Virus genome (UHGV): UHGV-1968440
From: a virus
Reading direction: 5' to 3' (one strand)
DNA length: 14,431 nt
In this document: positions 1-14,431 of the stretch, piece by piece
How positions within the stretch are numbered: the stretch's first letter is position 1
Layout of the letters: the number at the start of each line of letters is the position of its first letter
Notes under the pieces: generated by a model
What the model was told of the DNA's origin: nothing
The model's database searches: none
Seen by the model: only the letters and a program-made list of their open reading frames with translations
Program-made: the position numbers and the translations under genes

Positions 1-57
1 GGTATCCGTTCTGCTGAAGTGTCATGGCGTTGATTTTACGGTGACTCTTCGACAGTG

Positions 58-83
58 AAAAGAAAAAAGGCCGCAGAGCGGCC
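58..83 (-). terminator. Rho-independent terminator closing the leftward int-cargo operon
   Basis: 6-bp GC stem ggccgc/gcggcc (69..83) with 3-nt loop; on the minus strand it is followed by TTTTTTCTTTT (plus-strand A-tract 58..68); lies ~125 bp downstream of the stop of the 209..646 gene. Confidence 0.6.
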
Positions 84-208
84 ATAAACACAAGTAAAAA
101 TCAATAAGTTAGATAATTATCAAAGGCTTACAGACACACAAAAACACAGCCAACCACAACAAATAACAGGGATGTGGTCACTTTGTGGATCATATCGCCG
201 CCATAAAT

Positions 209-646
209 TTACTTAATAACAGTAACCACAGCCACAAGCACAGCCATCGCAGACAGGACAATACCTGTGAGTAACCAAGTCTGATTTGCAAATGATTTCT
301 GAAGTTCAGTACGATGCTCAGCCATCTCAACTTTCAGAGACTGGCGTAAATCAGCCATCTCAGACTTCAGGGATTGGCGCGATTCTGCCATCTCAAGCCT
401 CAACCCTTCGCGAATCTCCAGTACATCAGATTTGGTAGCAAAGGATTCGCTTCTTGTGGTGAGAGTAATCAGGTTGTTTTTGATTTCAGTCACATCACTT
501 TCCAGGCAACTGACCCGCCGTTCAAGGTCGTCATTCATGCCATCACCTCCATCATTACCACTTCCTGTTACTTGGTTGTTGGATACATTATAGGCATTCT
601 CTTTCTTTTTTCTGAACCGCGAAATATGTGCAACATTCTCTGCCAT
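209..646 (-). CDS. Hypothetical coiled-coil, C-terminally membrane-anchored protein (prophage cargo downstream of int)
   Basis: Track ORF 209..649; ATG at 644..646 is the likely start (the GTG at 647..649 is the track start). Translation has three tandem ~11-residue repeats (LRLEMAESRQS / LKSEMADLRQS / LKVEMAEHRTE) and a hydrophobic C-terminal segment WLLTGIVLSAMAVLVAVVTVIK. Start overlaps the stop of the upstream gene (TGATG). Confidence 0.55.
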   Translation of the reverse strand: MAENVAHISRFRKKKENAYNVSNNQVTGSGNDGGDGMNDDLERRVSCLESDVTEIKNNLITLTTRSESFATKSDVLEIREGLRLEMAESRQSLKSEMADLRQSLKVEMAEHRTELQKSFANQTWLLTGIVLSAMAVLVAVVTVIK

Positions 647-1008
647 CACTTCTCATCACCCTGCTTGCCTACCCAGTTCATAAAGGCCCGGGCCGAGTAA
701 CGATGAACAAACCCACATCTGTTACAGGTAAGTCGGAATTCATAGTTATGGATATTTTCCCGATCATGTCCCTCATATCCCGGATACCCAGTAAATGGAC
801 CGATATAATCAAGCATAACAAGAGTGCCTAAATCACACTCCTCAGCAGTTTTCGGCTCAGACCCCACCTCAACAATATTCGTCAAATACATGTACATATC
901 CGTATCGCCACACGACAAACATTTTTCATTCGTAGACGACTCATTGAGAAAACGCGCAAAATTATCGAGCGTTGCCATTCTTTTAAGTTCATCTATATCA
1001 AACTTCAC
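646..1008 (-). CDS. Hypothetical Cys-rich protein (possible zinc ribbon), co-transcribed with int
   Basis: Track ORF 646..1008; GTG start preceded by a strong SD AGGAGGTG (reverse complement of 1016..1023) placed inside the int 3' end; two Cys pairs (CLSCG and CNRCG); starts 2 nt after the int stop. Confidence 0.55.
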   Translation of the reverse strand: MKFDIDELKRMATLDNFARFLNESSTNEKCLSCGDTDMYMYLTNIVEVGSEPKTAEECDLGTLVMLDYIGPFTGYPGYEGHDRENIHNYEFRLTCNRCGFVHRYSARAFMNWVGKQGDEK

Positions 1009-1010
1009 TC

Positions 1011-1988
1011 TTAAGCACCTCCTAGTGGATTAAACCTCACCGCATCCTGCAGGTAATCCGGCGCAAGATGGGCATAAATCATCGTTGTCTGAATCTTTGC
1101 GTGCCCCAGAATTTTCTGGAGCGTCAGAATATTGCCGCCGTTCATCATGAAATGACTGGCGAAGGTGTGGCGCAGCGCATGAACAGCCTGGCCGTCAGGA
1201 ACATCAGGTGCGACCGTTTTGATGACATCGCGAACCAATGAATAATCCAGCGTCGGAAACACCAGTTTCCCGCCCCGTTTTTTGATCTTTTCAAACAGGC
1301 TTTCAGAAATAGGAACGGTACGGTTTTTGCTGTTCTTCGTTTTTGAAAAAGTGATTCGACAATGAAGAACACGGCGCTGCTCCAGTGCCGCTACCTCGCC
1401 CCATTGCGCCCCGGTCGACAGAAGGATTTCGACAGCCAGCCGTTCATCGGGATTTTCAGCCAGTGCATCCAGCAACTGAACACATTCAGACTTACTCAGG
1501 TATCCCATTTCGCGCTCGTTAACCTTCATTCCTTTAAGGCCTTGAACGGGGTTATCGTTAAGAAAATGGCCGGATGAGATGAGTGCGGTAAACATCGCGC
1601 TTAACGCCCCAATCTCTCGATTTATGGTGCTGGGCTGTATCCCCTGCTCTATCCTGGACACACGTAGCTCGGTGAGCATCGTTGTATTAAGTTTATGCAC
1701 GCACGGGTCATCCATTGCCTCACTCAAGCGCAGCAATTTAAGGCGCGTGTTATGCCCTGACTTCATTAGCTGGCCGTGGTATTTCCACCACAAGTCAATA
1801 AGCACTGACAGCGGACGGCGATCAATAGAGTTTCCTTTCCACTCATTGTTATGCTGTTGCGCCAGCACCCACCGCTCATATAAAACTGCATCCGATTTCG
1901 TTTTAAATTTTTTACGAATGCGTTTGCCTTTACGCCCCTCCGGGCGTATGTCAAGAAGATACCCTCCCGGAATTGATTTTATGCTCAT
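1011..1988 (-). CDS. int: Tyrosine integrase, P2 Int-like
   Basis: Track ORF 1011..2138; likely start at internal M (MSIKSIPGGYLLDIRPEGRKGKRIRKKFKTKSDAV...) at 1986..1988, giving ~325 aa. C-terminal catalytic region HALRHTFASHFMMNGGNILTLQKILGHAKIQTTMIYAHLAP carries the R/H..H/Y signature of tyrosine recombinases. N-terminal segment resembles P2 integrase as I recall it. Confidence 0.9.
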   Translation of the reverse strand: MSIKSIPGGYLLDIRPEGRKGKRIRKKFKTKSDAVLYERWVLAQQHNNEWKGNSIDRRPLSVLIDLWWKYHGQLMKSGHNTRLKLLRLSEAMDDPCVHKLNTTMLTELRVSRIEQGIQPSTINREIGALSAMFTALISSGHFLNDNPVQGLKGMKVNEREMGYLSKSECVQLLDALAENPDERLAVEILLSTGAQWGEVAALEQRRVLHCRITFSKTKNSKNRTVPISESLFEKIKKRGGKLVFPTLDYSLVRDVIKTVAPDVPDGQAVHALRHTFASHFMMNGGNILTLQKILGHAKIQTTMIYAHLAPDYLQDAVRFNPLGGA

Positions 1989-8959: not shown

Positions 8960-9919
8960 ATGAAAATTTACATCGACGACGGCTCCACCAACATCAAGCT
9001 GGCATGGACTGAGAACGGCGAACGCCGCAACGCCATCAGCCCGAACAGCTTCAAGTCGGAATGGTCTGCGCCGTTCGGTGGCTCGCAGCCTGCTAACTAC
9101 ATGCTTGATGGCGTGCGCTATGGTTTTGATCCGGTCAGCGATCGCTTTGTCCAGACGACCGACACGCAATACCAGTACAGCGATGTGAATGTCATTGCCA
9201 TTCATCACGCGCTGGTCAAATCAGACATCACGCCACAGGAAGTGGATGTGGTTGTTACCCTGCCACTGAGCGAATATTTCGACACAAACGCACAGCCGGA
9301 CATGGCCAACATCAACCGCAAAAAAGCGAACGTCATGCGCCCGGTGGAGTACCAGAACGGCGAAGCATTCACTATCCGTAACGTACGGGTTATGCCTGAA
9401 TCCATTCCGGCTGGCTTTAAAGCACTGGCTGACATGAGTCCGTTTGAATCCCTGCTGATTGTGGATTTGGGCGGAACCACGCTGGATGTGGCAAAGGTTC
9501 AGGGGCAACTGGCAGGTATCAGCCAGGTGTTTTGCGATCCACACGTAGGCGTTTCTCTTATGGCCGATGCCGTACTGTCGGTGATGGCCACTAACGGTAT
9601 GCGCACCAGTCACCACATCGCCAATACCATTATCGAACATCGCCATAATGAAGCCTGGCTGCGCCAGCACATCCACAATGACGCGCATTACGCCAGCCTG
9701 ATGGCGGTTATTCGTGAAAAGGAAGAAACACTGAAACAACGCGTGATCCGCGCGCTGGCGGTTTTTTCGGGTTACGGGCGGGTGATGGTTGTCGGTGGCG
9801 GGGCGGAGATTGTGGCACCCGCTATCCGCGAAGCCTGCGGAGTTAATGCGACTTTCATCGCGGACGGGGTGCCACAGTTTGCTCTGGTTAATGGGCTGTA
9901 CGCAATGGACAAGGAGTAA
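8960..9919 (+). CDS. parM: ParM/StbA-like actin-type segregation ATPase
   Basis: 319-aa ORF. N-terminal MKIYIDDGSTNIKLAW, then SPNSFK, YSDVNV, HHAL, MPESIPAGF, DLGGTTLDV, GVSL, VVGGGAE and LVNGLYAM match, in order, the motifs I recall from plasmid R1 ParM (actin/ASKHA fold). SD-like AGGA 8 nt upstream of the ATG. Confidence 0.85.
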   Translation: MKIYIDDGSTNIKLAWTENGERRNAISPNSFKSEWSAPFGGSQPANYMLDGVRYGFDPVSDRFVQTTDTQYQYSDVNVIAIHHALVKSDITPQEVDVVVTLPLSEYFDTNAQPDMANINRKKANVMRPVEYQNGEAFTIRNVRVMPESIPAGFKALADMSPFESLLIVDLGGTTLDVAKVQGQLAGISQVFCDPHVGVSLMADAVLSVMATNGMRTSHHIANTIIEHRHNEAWLRQHIHNDAHYASLMAVIREKEETLKQRVIRALAVFSGYGRVMVVGGGAEIVAPAIREACGVNATFIADGVPQFALVNGLYAMDKE

Positions 9920-9923
9920 ACCA

Positions 9924-10235
9924 ATGACGACACCAACCAGACGGATAAGTTTCTATCTGAAGCCCGCCGCCGTCAAGAACGAAGGAGAAGCATGCGCCTG
10001 GCTGGACAGCCTTACACCAGAAGCCCGCAAAAGCGGCCAACGCGTGGCTTTTCTGGCCGGGCTGGCACTTCTGAAGACGAATCCGGCAGAGGCTTACCGA
10101 CTGGCCGCATGGGCTGATGATGAGATGTTACCTGTGACACAAATCAGCTCAAAAAAGTTTGAAGCACAGTCTGCACCAGTGGCTAAGATAACCAGCCAGA
10201 TGGCTGGGAATATCCGGGCGTTATTTCCTGAGTAA
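9924..10235 (+). CDS. parR: ParR/StbB-like centromere-binding adaptor
   Basis: Track ORF 9789..10235 is an upstream-extended version; ATG at 9924 has SD AAGGAG (9911..9916) and follows the parM stop by 4 nt. Translation MTTPTRRISFYLKPAAVKNEGEACAWLDSLTPEARKSGQRVAFLAGLALL parallels the N-terminal region of R1 ParR as recalled (RTIAFKLNP...LDSIPQGERSRLNRAALTAGLAL). Confidence 0.75.
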   Translation: MTTPTRRISFYLKPAAVKNEGEACAWLDSLTPEARKSGQRVAFLAGLALLKTNPAEAYRLAAWADDEMLPVTQISSKKFEAQSAPVAKITSQMAGNIRALFPE

Positions 10236-11961: not shown

Positions 11962-11986
11962 CAGCCCCATCACGGGGCTGTTTTTT
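11962..11986. terminator. Bidirectional intrinsic terminator between convergent genes
   Basis: Stem cagcccc/ggggctg (11962..11980) followed by TTTTTT on the plus strand and by CCTTTTTAC on the minus strand; overlaps the last codons of the portal gene. Confidence 0.7.
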
Positions 11987-13016
11987 CATCAAGAAGAGCA
12001 TAAGAGTTAAAACGGATCACCTCTTCGCCAAGCCAGTCATTGATGTGCTTCATAGCCTCCATGACGGGCATCAGCTCGTTAATTGCGTAAACCCGCGCTG
12101 CCTTCTCCACATCGCCAAACGCACTTTTTTCGCCCGGCATCGCCCCCATCAGTTGCGGCGGAACGCGGTGCGCAGCCAGCACATCATCACGGGATGCCGC
12201 CTTAACATTCATGAATTCATCTTTTGCGGTGATCTGCTGGAACGGCAAAATTTGCACCCCCTCTTTGCCCCCGTTGGGCGCATGAATGAGCACGTTTTTA
12301 AACGCACCACCACCACGTGCCCCCTGTAGCGTTTCTTTCAGGGAGTCCATGCTTTCGCGGTTTACCTGCGCTGCACCGATGTAGATGATGCACCCGGCGT
12401 GGGATCCGTTGTCGTAGTACAGTTTTCTGAACATGTCCGCCGAATGAGAAAGGCTGGCCGAGAGTAATGCGCCAAGATATTCCGGCATGCCGTAGATTTC
12501 CTGGTTAATATCCGGATTCATCAGGTGGCACACTTTGCCAGGACGAAACTGAAACGCGTCCTTGCCATCCTGCACATACCACCATGATTCAAGATCGCTT
12601 CCGCGTCGCATGTATTTCGCCAGGGCGTGCCGTAATTTAAGCGGTTCGCCGAGCATATTGCTTCGAAGCTCAAGGAATGCGTTACCGAACACAAACCAGT
12701 CCAGCGCCAGCGCCGAGAAATCCTGCCGGGAAAGCAGCGGGTGCGGGATGTAGCAACCGAGTAATACATTGCGCTTAAAGTAAAGCGCAGACTGATGCCA
12801 GGACGTTTGCCGGGCTGCTCTTGCCAGACCGTACCAGTCCACCGGGGTTTCATACCACCGCCCGTTATCAGCACAGTACATATTGTCCAGCAGGTCATGC
12901 CCGGTCAGGCGATAAGGACCATCAAATGTGAATGCACTGAGCGATGATTCTTTCCTGAGCGCATCAGCGAGATCAATGCGTGAACTCATGCGCACTTTTT
13001 TATTTTTTCTGCTCAT
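11970..13016 (-). CDS. Q: Portal protein, P2 gpQ-like
   Basis: 348-aa ORF beginning MSRKNKKVRMSS; segments GRWYETP, LESWWYVQ, HLMNPDINQEIYGMPEYL, YYDNGSHAG, SRDDVLAAHRVPPQLMG, GDVEKAARVY and NDWLGEEVIRFN resemble P2 gpQ as I recall it. Start overlaps the stop of the upstream terminase gene (ATGA at 13014..13018). Confidence 0.8.
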   Translation of the reverse strand: MSRKNKKVRMSSRIDLADALRKESSLSAFTFDGPYRLTGHDLLDNMYCADNGRWYETPVDWYGLARAARQTSWHQSALYFKRNVLLGCYIPHPLLSRQDFSALALDWFVFGNAFLELRSNMLGEPLKLRHALAKYMRRGSDLESWWYVQDGKDAFQFRPGKVCHLMNPDINQEIYGMPEYLGALLSASLSHSADMFRKLYYDNGSHAGCIIYIGAAQVNRESMDSLKETLQGARGGGAFKNVLIHAPNGGKEGVQILPFQQITAKDEFMNVKAASRDDVLAAHRVPPQLMGAMPGEKSAFGDVEKAARVYAINELMPVMEAMKHINDWLGEEVIRFNSYALLDEKTAP

Positions 13017-14428
13017 CAGAACTCCATAACCGTGAAACGCTCGTTTTCTCCTTCGCCGCCAATTGGTTCGTTAATGACAGCAAGCATGGTTGCCCACGCA
13101 AGGTCGCCGTGGCTGATCCCCCTCGCGCGGTCCGTTTCGTAAGTGATAAAGCCGCCCGGTGTTTTCACCTTACGCACGGCGTTAAAGGCTGCGACCAGCT
13201 CGCGTTCGGCGCGATCGTATTCCCACCGCCCGGCACGCATTATTTGCAGCATTTTCAGTACCAGCGACCGTTTTGATGACAGCGTGAAGGTGTACGGAAT
13301 AGCAGCAGGGAAAAACCGTTTCACTATCTGATAAACAGCCTCCCCGTTCCCGCCTGTCACATCAATGCCGATGTGTTCCACGTTGTAGCGACACGTGAAC
13401 TCTTCAATGACTCTGGCCTGTTCTTCAAACTCCAGCCCCTGAACGCGTCGCGTCTCCACCGTTCGAAAACGGCCGCCAGGAACAGCCGGAGGAACCACCA
13501 CGGACACAGCGCCGCTGTCGCCGTTTCCACTGCTGCCGTTTGCGTCATACCCAATCCATACCGGACGATTCCCCATCGGGCGGGGAGCAAAAGGTTTCCA
13601 GTCTTTCCAGTCGTCGTATCCGTCAACACCACAGCCAATCAGGATATTCAGGTTAAATGCCGATTCCCCTTCGCGGACAAACTCACACATATAGAGATTG
13701 AGGAACTCGTCTTCGGTGTTTTCATCACGAATTTCATCAATATCGGTGTGTTTCCAGCCGTGATTAACCACATCTTCCAGCGTGACAATTTGCCGCCACG
13801 TCCGGTCAGGGCAGATAAGCCCGTTATGCAGCGTTTTCCAGTCCACAGAAAAACGCTGGCGTTTATGCGAGGCCTTTTTCTCGTTCCAGCGGTCGCCGTT
13901 CCAGTAGGCGTATGCCTCGTGCGTTTCGGTGGATGGCGTGGAGAAGTAGGTGCGCCGCAGTCCGCTGAGGGTTGCCATAGCGCCAGCCACCTTGCGCAGT
14001 TCAGCAAAGCGACTGACCCAGAAAAATTCATCAAAATAAAAATTGCCCGTGTAGGACTGTGCCGTCGCAGCAGAAGTACCAAGAAAATGCAGCTCTGCGC
14101 CGTTGGAGAGGATGATTTTATCGCCCCCTTTCAGCTCCACATCAACTTCAGATGCAGCCTCCTGAATAATGCTTTTAAACTGGAACGCCTGACGACGCGA
14201 CGCAGACAAAAAAATCTGGTTACGCTGGTAAGGTTGCGCCACATCGTCACGCAGCGCCATCAGCAGTGCTTCCTGAGCAAAATACCAGGTCGCCCCAATC
14301 TGTCGGGATTTCAGGACCATCCTGTTACGTATCCCGGCTTCCCTGCAAAGGGTCCTGTCTCTTATACACAAATCCCCACCCGGGGATTTGTGATGTCTGT
14401 CAGTCTGCTTTAGGGGGACTCTTTCCAT
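13016..14428 (-). CDS. P: Terminase large (ATPase) subunit, P2 gpP-like; 5' boundary uncertain
   Basis: 470-aa track ORF in-frame to within 3 nt of the window edge. Walker-A-like KSRQIGAT near the N-terminal end of the recognisable region and a Walker-B-like hydrophobic-DE segment (NFYFDEFFWV). The first ~36 track residues translate a hairpin / IS-end-like sequence and look non-protein-like, so the true start is either the Met at about 14318..14320 or lies beyond the window. Confidence 0.75.
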   Translation of the reverse strand: MERVPLKQTDRHHKSPGGDLCIRDRTLCREAGIRNRMVLKSRQIGATWYFAQEALLMALRDDVAQPYQRNQIFLSASRRQAFQFKSIIQEAASEVDVELKGGDKIILSNGAELHFLGTSAATAQSYTGNFYFDEFFWVSRFAELRKVAGAMATLSGLRRTYFSTPSTETHEAYAYWNGDRWNEKKASHKRQRFSVDWKTLHNGLICPDRTWRQIVTLEDVVNHGWKHTDIDEIRDENTEDEFLNLYMCEFVREGESAFNLNILIGCGVDGYDDWKDWKPFAPRPMGNRPVWIGYDANGSSGNGDSGAVSVVVPPAVPGGRFRTVETRRVQGLEFEEQARVIEEFTCRYNVEHIGIDVTGGNGEAVYQIVKRFFPAAIPYTFTLSSKRSLVLKMLQIMRAGRWEYDRAERELVAAFNAVRKVKTPGGFITYETDRARGISHGDLAWATMLAVINEPIGGEGENERFTVMEF

Positions 14429-14431
14429 CCG

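What the first reader, a model, noticed from the sequence alone, without database searches (positions are those of the whole stretch)
14355..14392. Tn5/IS50 outside-end-like 19-mer and 11-bp hairpin at the 5' side of the terminase gene
CTGTCTCTTATACACAAAT (14355..14373) matches the IS50 outside end CTGACTCTTATACACAAGT at 17 of 19 positions and the engineered mosaic end at the first 16. It overlaps a perfect hairpin CACAAATCCCC-ACCC-GGGGATTTGTG (14367..14392). The terminase frame reads through this sequence, but the encoded N-terminal ~36 residues look non-protein-like, and the recognisable ATPase region starts just downstream. Possibilities are an IS4-family element (or a laboratory Tn5 derivative) inserted into the 5' part of the terminase gene, which would make the prophage packaging-defective, or a native late-promoter element.
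Basis: partly seen in the sequence, partly recalled or inferred. Interest (0 to 1): 0.5.

Follow-up and report, generated by a model that had tools for sequence, protein, structure and literature searches.

The report
ISEc13 insertion splitting a prophage terminase gene
The last 77 bases of the window are the left end of ISEc13, a known Tn5-like jumping gene of E. coli, which has landed inside the DNA-packaging (terminase) gene of a P2-type prophage; this is a real but ordinary event.

Summary
Window 14355..14431 is 77/77 identical to the first 77 nt of ISEc13, a catalogued 1550-bp IS4-family, IS50-subgroup element. ISEc13 occurs in 1375 of 5426 complete E. coli genomes, with up to 31 copies per genome. 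Similarity to intact P2-family terminase genes (583 aa) stops exactly at 14354. The IS therefore sits in codon 138, between the N-terminal gpP-like HTH domain and the ATPase domain. The window ends inside the IS, so the transposase gene, the second end and the target duplication are not visible.

This is a natural IS, not laboratory Tn5 or Nextera sequence, and not a phage late promoter. The left end resembles the IS50 outside end (17/19). The right end of reference copies equals the IS50 inside end (19/19).

The 11-bp hairpin belongs to the IS. In about 20 relatives (transposase 42-77% identical) a hairpin starts at about the same position (IS nt 13-16), covaries, and in most is followed by T6-9. 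That looks like an intrinsic terminator shielding the transposase gene from outside transcription. ISEc13 itself has lost the T-run.

Seen in passing: this IS clade inserts into the loops of hairpins, often terminator-like ones. The terminase site fits the ISEc13 motif CCCY-N8-11-RGGG. Interest in the finding itself is low.

The parts
13016..14354 (-). 3' 1339 nt of a P2-family terminase large-subunit (gpP-like) gene. This is the last two bases of codon 138, then codons 139-583 and the stop. It encodes the Terminase_6N ATPase and Terminase_6C nuclease domains. The first 413 nt (137 codons plus the first base of codon 138, including the Terminase_5 HTH domain) are missing.
   Evidence: 99.9% identical to intact 1752-nt genes in complete E. 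coli genomes over exactly these coordinates. Alignment and translation. Pfam domains of the intact protein.
14340..14354 (.). Target site. It holds the left half of the interrupted palindrome TCCCTG-N8-CAGGGA. The presumed left copy of the target duplication is CAAAGGGTC, 14346..14354, if the duplication is 9 bp, or 8-10 bp as in other copies.
   Evidence: The intact gene reads ...CTTCCCTGCAAAGGGTC|AGGGAGTCAAACC. Eight reference ISEc13 copies have 8-11 bp direct repeats flanked by CCC(C/T) and (A/G/C)GGG. The second copy of the duplication lies outside the window, so the duplication itself is inferred.
14355..14431 (+). Left (IS50 outside-end-like) terminus of ISEc13, nt 1-77 of a 1550-bp element. 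The transposase gene would run rightwards, on the + strand, opposite to the terminase gene.
   Evidence: 77/77 identical to ISEc13 of E2348/69 (L001 3008..3084). Matches in 1375 of 5426 genomes, up to 31 places per genome, all starting at about query position 13-16. The adjacent CDS in reference copies is annotated 'IS4-like element ISEc13 family transposase'.
14355..14373 (+). 19-bp terminal inverted repeat, the presumed transposase-binding end. It contains TTATACACA (14362..14370), the same 9-mer that forms the DnaA box of the IS50 outside end.
   Evidence: 17/19 to the IS50 outside end. It fits the IS50-subgroup end consensus CW------Y---CA-A--W- given in PMC2266710. The sequence is conserved in relatives. 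The DnaA-box role is established knowledge for IS50 and was not tested here.
14367..14392 (+). Subterminal hairpin of ISEc13 (IS nt 13-38), with an 11-bp stem and a 4-nt loop. Its 5' arm overlaps the terminal repeat.
   Evidence: Fold. Pairing is kept in ISEc13 variants through a G-U change, a different loop, or an extended stem (L010, L011, L006). A hairpin starting at about the same position (IS nt 13-16), with covariation and in most a T-run, is present in about 20 relatives.
11970..13016 (-). Portal gene (gpQ-like). It lies immediately downstream of the terminase gene on the same strand, with the stop and start overlapping. It is therefore exposed to polar effects of the insertion.
   Evidence: Pfam Phage_portal. 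The same arrangement with an intact 583-aa terminase is seen in all 10 places shown for this exact portal protein and in L003 and L096.

Best explanation
Window 14355..14431 is the left end of a copy of ISEc13, a natural 1550-bp IS4-family, IS50-subgroup insertion sequence of Escherichia. It has transposed into codon 138 of the terminase large-subunit gene of a P2-family prophage integrated next to btuC.

The IS points away from the terminase 3' fragment, so its transposase gene would be on the + strand. The insertion separates the N-terminal gpP-type HTH domain and the phage late promoter from the ATPase and nuclease domains and from the downstream portal gene. It should therefore abolish DNA packaging by this prophage (inferred).

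The 19-mer is the transposase-binding terminal repeat. Like IS50, the element has an outside-end-like left end with a DnaA-box 9-mer. In reference copies it also has an inside-end-like right end with two GATC sites.

The hairpin is an intrinsic part of the IS. In related elements a hairpin starting at about the same position (IS nt 13-16) is in most followed by T6-9 and then GAAC. That arrangement looks like a Rho-independent terminator placed just upstream of the transposase promoter, which would stop transcripts that enter from flanking DNA from driving transposase synthesis. In ISEc13 the T-run has been replaced by TTTGTG, which pairs with CACAAA and lengthens the stem. A second imperfect hairpin followed by GATTTTTTGAAC lies about 60 nt further in. 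The visible hairpin is therefore most likely a derived, possibly weakened, version of that insulator (inferred).

The window probably stops where a short-read assembly broke in the repeat (inferred).
For: IS identity:
- The window tail is 77/77 identical to ISEc13.
- ISEc13 is multi-copy and dispersed on chromosomes and plasmids.
- Reference copies are annotated as ISEc13 transposase.
- The transposase has the Tn5-type domains and is 39% identical to IS50R and 50.7% to ISVa18.
- The right end of the reference copy equals the IS50 inside end at 19/19.

Insertion point:
- Megablast similarity to intact terminase genes covers query 1..1339, which is window 13016..14354 and nothing beyond.
- The three-way alignment shows the switch from terminase to IS at 14354/14355.
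- The intact gene is 1752 nt / 583 aa, with Terminase_5 at aa 6-63, Terminase_6N at 150-374 and Terminase_6C at 405-566.

Phage context: integrase, gpA-like replication endonuclease, ParM, portal, and in intact relatives GPO scaffold, P2-family capsid and gpM.

Target site: it fits the CCCY-N8-11-RGGG pattern of eight other ISEc13 copies.

Hairpin:
- Stable fold.
- 18 distinct sequences all pair at IS nt 16-27/28, with 4-5 pair types at nt 24-28.
- RNAalifold finds compensatory changes in 5 of 7 pairs.
- A T6-9 run followed by GAAC is visible in the relatives.
- The second structure plus U6 appears in the ISEc13 fold.

Assembly break: ISEc13 assembles as a stand-alone contig of about 1.55 kb in draft genomes (L010, L011), consistent with assemblies breaking at this repeat.
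Against: - Only 77 nt of the IS are in the window. A full element, the second end and the target duplication are not seen.
- Truncated ISEc13 pieces exist elsewhere. Some plasmids carry only nt 1-206 or only the right end, and O157 carries a degenerate copy.
- The junction was not found in any collection searched, so nothing independent confirms it.
- For the terminator idea: ISEc13's own hairpin has no T-run after the stem.
- The simple terminator scanner flags neither the ISEc13 hairpin nor those of ISVa18 or the Scandinavium relative. For the relatives this is because the scanner extends the stem through AAA/TTT and then counts too few T in the tail.
- No termination was measured.
- A minus-strand ORF stays open from IS nt 183 into the terminase fragment, with ATG codons at IS nt 149 and 74. 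An N-terminally truncated fusion protein is therefore not excluded.
Confidence: 0.93

Rival explanations
1. The IS end marks an IS-mediated rearrangement, or a solo IS fragment, rather than a simple insertion. On this view the DNA beyond the IS is not the remaining 413 nt of the terminase gene, and the prophage is a truncated remnant bounded by ISEc13 (adjacent deletion, inversion, or recombination between two ISEc13 copies).
For: The right side is invisible. ISEc13 reaches up to 31 copies per genome, which gives ample substrate for recombination. Truncated ISEc13 pieces are common on plasmids and in O157. No record containing both junctions was found.
Against: The full symmetric target motif CCCT-N10-AGGG exists in the intact gene exactly at the break. 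That is what a primary insertion into an intact gene predicts. The left 14.35 kb of the prophage is collinear with intact prophages. These points show that the original event was an insertion. They do not exclude a later rearrangement.
Confidence: 0.2
2. The sequence comes from laboratory Tn5, a mosaic end or a Nextera adapter. It would be either an engineered mini-Tn5 insertion or adapter read-through at a contig end.
For: The first 16 bases equal the mosaic end, and the feature sits at the very edge of the window.
Against: Positions 17-18 differ from the mosaic end. The next 58 bases are ISEc13, not IS50 interior (L007...AAGTAGCGTCCTGAACGG) and not adapter sequence. The identical 77-mer is present in 1375 natural complete E. 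coli genomes.
Confidence: 0.01
3. The 19-mer and hairpin are a native regulatory element (late promoter or operator) of the P2-type phage, lying upstream of a shorter terminase gene.
For: The hairpin is strong, and an ATG at 14428 gives a 470-aa ORF.
Against: Intact homologues are 583 aa, with a conserved Terminase_5 domain encoded where the window has IS sequence. Phage similarity stops at 14354 in every best-ranked record. The 470-aa and 471-aa products are on record nowhere.
Confidence: 0.01
4. The hairpin is not a terminator. It would act at the DNA level or on transposition, for example as a subterminal inverted copy of end nt 13-23 that modulates transposase binding or end choice, or as an mRNA or antisense stability element.
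For: ISEc13 lacks the T-run. The 5' arm overlaps the transposase-binding 19-mer. The right end of ISEc13 and of most relatives also carries an inverted copy of its own end nt 3-13, so both ends can form hairpins that include end sequence.
Against: In the left-end hairpin the conserved lower stem is A/T-rich and continues into a T6-9 run, while the upper stem varies freely with compensation. That is the signature of an RNA terminator rather than a protein-binding repeat. The left and right hairpins cover different parts of the end, nt 13-23 versus nt 3-13.
Confidence: 0.3

Closest known systems
ISEc13 (ISfinder name; IS4 family, IS50 subgroup; reference copies in E. coli O127:H6 E2348/69, transposase WP_000244358.1)
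   Same: The 77 nt in the window are identical to its left end. The insertion site has the same target-site flanks as other copies.
   Different: Nothing differs in the part that can be seen. This particular insertion site, a P2-family terminase gene, was not found in 5426 complete E. coli genomes or the other collections searched.
IS50 of Tn5
   Same: Tn5-type transposase architecture, 39% identity. Asymmetric ends: the left end is 17/19 to the outside end, including the DnaA-box 9-mer, and the right end is 19/19 to the inside end with its two GATC sites. The transposase stop codon lies inside the right end. The direct-repeat size class is the same (8-9 bp per PMC2266710).
   Different: The interior sequence is different. 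IS50 has no hairpin overlapping nt 13-38 and no T-run; it has a different, weaker structure at nt 19-58. From established knowledge, IS50 neutralises read-through transcripts by occluding translation initiation rather than by a terminator. IS50 is not known for the CCCY...RGGG or hairpin-loop target preference seen here.
ISVa18 and unnamed relatives in Vibrio, Shewanella, Alishewanella, Pantoea, Scandinavium, Xenorhabdus and others
   Same: The first 19-23 nt are the same (CTGTCTCTTATACACAAATCCC). A hairpin starts at IS nt 16. The right end is inside-end-like and has a subterminal inverted copy.
   Different: In the relatives the hairpin has a longer G+C-rich upper stem and is followed directly by T6-9 GAAC, and the transposase ATG lies about 100-128 nt from the end. 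ISEc13 has a shorter upper stem, TTTGTG instead of the T-run, about 60 extra nt, and its ATG at nt 166.
Left-end transcription-terminator hairpin of IS200, and read-through protection in IS10 and IS50 (from the literature, recalled; not retrieved here)
   Same: The logic is the same: a structure at the transposase-proximal end stops outside transcription from activating transposase.
   Different: The IS families and sequences are unrelated. Function in the ISEc13 clade is inferred from sequence only.

Membership tests
ISEc13 / IS4 family, IS50 subgroup | Terminal sequence identical or near-identical to reference copies of the named IS | tested here: met
   77/77 nt to L001 3008..3084. 647 records match at 99% or more.
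ISEc13 / IS4 family, IS50 subgroup | Repeated and dispersed in genomes (mobile) | tested here: met
   1774 places in 1375 of 5426 E. coli genomes, up to 31 per genome, on chromosomes and plasmids. The flanking genes differ between copies.
ISEc13 / IS4 family, IS50 subgroup | IS50-subgroup end consensus CW------Y---CA-A--W- with a 5'-CT terminus (PMC2266710) | tested here: met
   CTGTCTCTTATACACAAATC fits at all specified positions (sequence, consensus).
ISEc13 / IS4 family, IS50 subgroup | Adjacent Tn5-type DDE transposase gene | not testable with these tools
   The window ends at IS nt 77, and the transposase ATG is at IS nt 166 in reference copies. In reference copies the gene has Tnp_DNA_bind, DDE_Tnp_1 and Dimer_Tnp_Tn5.
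ISEc13 / IS4 family, IS50 subgroup | Second, inverted end and an 8-10 bp target-site duplication | not testable with these tools
   Both lie outside the window. The predicted right junction was not found in metagenome contigs. Reference copies show 8-11 bp repeats.
IS50 proper / laboratory Tn5 (outside end, inside end or mosaic end) | Exact 19-bp outside end or mosaic end, followed by IS50 interior or adapter/vector sequence | tested here: not met
   17/19 to both the outside end and the mosaic end. The interior differs from IS50R (L007).
Rho-independent (intrinsic) terminator | G+C-containing stem-loop | tested here: met
   11-bp stem, 4-nt loop, -18.6 kcal/mol.
Rho-independent (intrinsic) terminator | Run of U immediately 3' of the stem | tested here: not met
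   The tail is ATGTCTGT, and the TTTGTG is inside the stem. The scanner does not flag it. The feature is present in most relatives, as GGGGA followed by T6-9, although the scanner misses them because of its stem-extension rule.
Rho-independent (intrinsic) terminator | Measured termination of transcription | not testable with these tools
   Needs in vitro transcription, Term-seq or a reporter assay.
P2-family terminase large subunit (gpP) | Terminase_5 N-terminal domain plus Terminase_6N ATPase plus Terminase_6C nuclease in one reading frame | tested here: not met
   The window copy lacks residues 1-137, including Terminase_5. Intact homologues have all three domains. It is a disrupted member of the family.

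The most novel reading that the evidence does not exclude
The ISEc13/ISVa18 branch of Tn5-like insertion sequences may be a structure-targeting clade. It inserts into the loops of hairpin-forming DNA, very often bidirectional intrinsic terminators; for ISEc13 the motif is CCCY-N8-11-RGGG. It also carries its own terminator at the left end, with the 5' arm built into the transposase-binding repeat. One insertion would then both land in a 'safe' site and replace the terminator it splits. The window's hairpin would be the derived ISEc13 form, and the terminase hit an off-target landing in a weak palindrome inside a gene.
Probability: 0.35. Interest if true: 0.45.

Novelty: already known. Interest (0 to 1): 0.15.

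Why it matters
The finding has limited consequences for the genome in hand.
- It marks this P2-type prophage as probably unable to package DNA, and so as a candidate cryptic prophage.
- It explains why the sequence stops here: the assembly likely broke in a multi-copy IS.
- It warns annotators that the 470-aa 'terminase' ORF is a chimera, whose first 25 residues (24 full codons plus the junction codon) are read from IS DNA.
- It shows that a near-match to the Tn5 mosaic end in E. coli sequence need not be adapter contamination, because ISEc13 shares the first 16 bases.

The broader point lies outside the finding. If confirmed, hairpin-loop targeting and a built-in terminator in this Tn5-related clade would be useful for understanding target choice by Tn5-type transposases.

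Tried and rejected
- I searched for the exact left junction in GTDB representative genomes, JGI metagenome contigs and IMG/VR, and for the predicted right junction in metagenomes. All returned nothing.
- I looked up the fused 470-aa and 471-aa products by exact sequence. Neither is on record.
- I looked up the exact portal protein. It is on more than 20,000 blocks, and the 10 places shown all have an intact terminase, so the source strain was not identified.
- A five-sequence transposase alignment was too divergent for the search for related loci. A three-sequence alignment worked.
- MAFFT misaligned the ISEc13-lineage hairpins against the relatives. I therefore counted covariation from per-sequence folds anchored at IS nt 16. 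This makes 'all paired' partly true by construction, so I cross-checked with RNAalifold.
- The simple terminator and promoter scanner gave no call at the IS left end in ISEc13, ISVa18 or the Scandinavium relative.
- Rfam gave no family for ISEc13 or ISVa18.
- Literature searches for ISEc13 returned only lists of IS names. Searches for terminator or hairpin targeting by IS4-family elements found only ISRm22 in REP sequences and nothing for the IS50 subgroup.
- Laboratory Tn5/Nextera and late-promoter readings were considered and rejected, as set out under the rival explanations.
Full report
**What is in the sequence**

CTGTCTCTTATACACAAAT lies at 14355..14373, and CACAAATCCCC-ACCC-GGGGATTTGTG at 14367..14392. 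The second is a perfect 11-bp stem with a 4-nt loop. Folded as RNA it gives -18.6 kcal/mol, z = -4.25, and none of 200 dinucleotide-preserving shuffles folds as well.

On the minus strand an ORF runs from the window edge to a stop at 13016. Its product reads RMERVPLKQTDRHHKSPGGDLCIRDR and then TLCREAGIRNRMVLKSRQIGATWYF..., which is terminase sequence.

**What the 77-nt tail is**

I ran megablast of 14340..14431 against 5426 complete E. coli genomes. It finds 1774 places in 1375 genomes, on chromosomes and plasmids, with up to 31 per genome. The matches begin at query positions 13-16, which is at or just before 14355.

In E2348/69 the match is followed by a CDS annotated 'IS4-like element ISEc13 family transposase'. 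That copy spans L001 3008..4557, 1550 bp. The window tail is 77/77 identical to its first 77 nt.

The transposase has the Tn5 domain set: Tnp_DNA_bind, DDE_Tnp_1 and Dimer_Tnp_Tn5. It is 39% identical to the IS50R transposase and 50.7% identical to that of ISVa18.

- The left 19-mer is 17/19 to the IS50 outside end, which I read from an annotated IS50R copy (L007 position 394).
- The right 19-mer of ISEc13, CTGTCTCTTGATCAGATCT, is 19/19 to the IS50 inside end.
- The end fits the IS50-subgroup consensus CW------Y---CA-A--W- of De Palmenaer et al. 2008 (PMC2266710).

ISEc13 is therefore a natural close analogue of IS50 with the same outside-end/inside-end asymmetry. It keeps the TTATACACA 9-mer that is the DnaA box of the IS50 outside end, and the two GATC sites of the inside end. 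The roles of those motifs are established for IS50 and were not tested here.

**Where it sits**

Megablast of 13016..14431, and of the whole window, gives best matches that all cover up to window 14354 and no further, at up to 99.9% identity. A three-way alignment shows the window following an intact terminase gene up to ...GCAAAGGGTC and then switching to ISEc13.

The intact gene (L003, WP_000613754.1) is 1752 nt and 583 aa. The window keeps its last 1339 nt, so the IS lies after nt 413, inside codon 138. Pfam places Terminase_5 (the gpP-type HTH domain) at residues 6-63, Terminase_6N at 150-374 and Terminase_6C at 405-566. The insertion therefore cuts off the N-terminal domain and the promoter side from the ATPase and nuclease domains. 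The foreign part of the ORF is 25 2/3 codons, not about 36.

The surroundings are a P2-family prophage next to btuC. It carries an integrase, a gpA-like replication endonuclease, ParM and its partner, and a portal gene. Intact relatives continue with the GPO scaffold, P2-family capsid and gpM genes.

The transposase gene would be on the + strand, opposite to the terminase gene. Late transcription from the terminase promoter would therefore have to cross 1.55 kb of antisense IS before reaching the terminase 3' part and the portal gene. Loss of packaging is inferred, not shown. A minus-strand ORF stays open from IS nt 183 into the terminase fragment, with ATG codons at IS nt 149 and 74. A truncated fusion protein is therefore conceivable, but it would lack the Terminase_5 domain.

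**What cannot be seen**

The window ends at IS nt 77. The transposase gene, the second end and the target duplication are all outside it.

- No complete E. coli genome holds this junction.
- The left junction is absent from GTDB representative genomes, JGI metagenome contigs and IMG/VR, and the predicted right junction is absent from metagenomes.
- The fused products are not on record.

Truncated ISEc13 pieces do exist elsewhere. A later IS-mediated rearrangement, or a solo fragment, therefore remains possible; I put this at about 0.2. In draft genomes ISEc13 assembles as its own contig of about 1.55 kb (L010, L011). It is thus a plausible inference that the window stops where a short-read assembly broke in the repeat.

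**Rejected readings**

- Laboratory Tn5, mosaic end or Nextera adapter: the 19-mer differs at positions 17-18. The following 58 nt are ISEc13, not IS50 interior or adapter, and the same 77-mer is in 1375 natural genomes.
- Native late-promoter element: intact homologues have coding sequence at this place, and the 583-aa architecture is universal among the copies examined.

**The hairpin**

It belongs to the IS (nt 13-38), and its 5' arm overlaps the terminal repeat. ISEc13 variants keep the pairing through a G-U change (L010), a different loop (L011), or an extended stem with a different loop (L006).

A scan of GTDB representative genomes with a transposase alignment gave 80 loci, 42-99% identical. 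About 20 distinct left ends share CTGTCTCTTATACACAAATCC. After that comes a variable upper stem and loop, then ...GGGGA followed in most by T6-9 and GAAC. These come from Vibrio, Photobacterium, Shewanella, Alishewanella, Pantoea, Scandinavium, Xenorhabdus and several MAGs.

Anchored at IS nt 16, all 18 distinct sequences pair at every position, with 4-5 different pair types at nt 24-28. The pairs come from each sequence's own fold, so the pairing itself is partly true by construction; the diversity of pair types is the informative part. RNAalifold on an ordinary MAFFT alignment finds compensatory changes in 5 of 7 pairs.

A G+C-rich stem with an A-tract before it and a long T-run after it is the anatomy of an intrinsic terminator. 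The run continues into TTGAAC. About 17-20 nt further lies GATC(T/A)GATC, which resembles the Dam-overlapped transposase promoter of IS50; this comparison is from memory and was not tested. The most economical reading is a terminator placed directly upstream of the transposase promoter, shielding it from transcripts that enter from flanking DNA.

In ISEc13 the T-run is TTTGTG and pairs with CACAAA. A second imperfect hairpin followed by GATTTTTTGAAC lies at IS nt 51-116, and the ATG is at nt 166. The visible hairpin is therefore a derived form whose terminator activity is doubtful.

The simple scanner calls none of these hairpins. For the relatives this is because it extends the stem through AAA/TTT and then finds only four T in its tail window. 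Rfam has no matching family.

A DNA-level role cannot be excluded. The right end of ISEc13 and of most relatives also contains an inverted copy of its own nt 3-13.

**Seen in passing: target choice**

I rebuilt the empty sites for 21 distinct copies of the relatives. In 18 of them the 8-10 bp direct repeat is centred on the loop of a strong hairpin, z = -2.6 to -5.7. Many have an A-tract before and a T-tract after, so they look like bidirectional terminators.

Eight ISEc13 copies have CCC(C/T) immediately left of, and (A/G/C)GGG immediately right of, an 8-11 bp repeat. The terminase site, read from the intact gene, is CCCT-GCAAAGGGTC-AGGG. It fits that motif, although it is only a weak palindrome (z = -0.6).

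I found no description of this preference for the IS50 subgroup. PMC2266710 gives direct repeats of 8-9 bp and no hairpin targeting, and PMC1525189 reports REP targeting only for ISRm22 of another subgroup. My search was limited to open-access text.

**Verdict**

The feature is a copy of a catalogued insertion sequence interrupting a prophage gene. That is a common kind of event, so it is already known and of low interest (0.15). The only part that might deserve separate follow-up is the side observation on the clade's built-in terminator and hairpin-loop targeting.

Noticed in passing
L004, L016, L020, L022, L035, L037, L038, L041, L044, L045, L047, L052, L062, L074, L076, L077 (IS flanks); window 14340..14354 plus L003 4340..4352: Relatives of ISEc13 sit with their 8-10 bp direct repeat centred on the loop of a strong hairpin. 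Many of these hairpins have an A-tract before and a T-tract after, so they look like bidirectional intrinsic terminators. This holds for 18 of 21 reconstructed empty sites, z = -2.6 to -5.7. It suggests structure- or palindrome-directed target choice in this Tn5-like clade.
   Followed up: partly
L001, L006, L090-L095 (ISEc13 flanks); window 14341..14354: All eight ISEc13 reference copies examined, and the window site, have CCC(C/T) directly left of and (A/G/C)GGG directly right of an 8-11 bp direct repeat. This looks like a symmetric target motif, CCCY-N8-11-RGGG.
   Followed up: partly
L001 4526..4556, and the right ends of most loci L004-L079: The right (inside-end-like) end of ISEc13 and of most relatives carries an inverted copy of its own nt 3-13 (...TCAAGAGAC) 8-20 nt further in. 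This gives a 9-14 bp hairpin that overlaps the last transposase codons (conserved K-S-L-D) and the stop codon. IS50 itself lacks it.
   Followed up: partly
L001 3058..3119 (ISEc13 nt 51-112, just beyond the window edge): ISEc13 has about 60 extra nt compared with its relatives. They form a second, imperfect hairpin followed by GATTTTTTGAAC, the motif that directly follows the first hairpin in the relatives. This suggests an insertion or duplication in the ISEc13 leader.
   Followed up: partly
window 14355..14431 (minus strand), continued in L001: A minus-strand ORF reading out of the IS left end stays open from IS nt 183. It has ATG codons at IS nt 149 and 74, the latter preceded by GGAGGAAGG, and it is in frame with the terminase fragment. 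Gene callers will therefore report a chimeric 'terminase' of 470-495 aa.
   Followed up: partly
window 14431 (right edge); L010, L011: The window ends exactly 77 nt into a multi-copy IS, and ISEc13 forms stand-alone contigs of about 1551 nt in draft assemblies. This is consistent with a de Bruijn assembly break at a repeat, where k = 77 is a common setting. That is an inference only.
   Followed up: no
window 8960..10235: The prophage carries a ParM-type actin-like segregation protein (319 aa), followed by a small partition/stability protein, between the replication gene and the portal gene. This is plasmid-style partition cargo in an integrated P2-family prophage. The region between it and the portal gene varies between related prophages.
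   Followed up: no
window 1..about 200: All 5426 complete E. coli genomes match some part of the window. The related prophage in strain PS1Thumoskin9 lies next to btuC, so the left edge of the window is probably core chromosome at the attachment site. No tRNA gene is present in the window.
   Followed up: no
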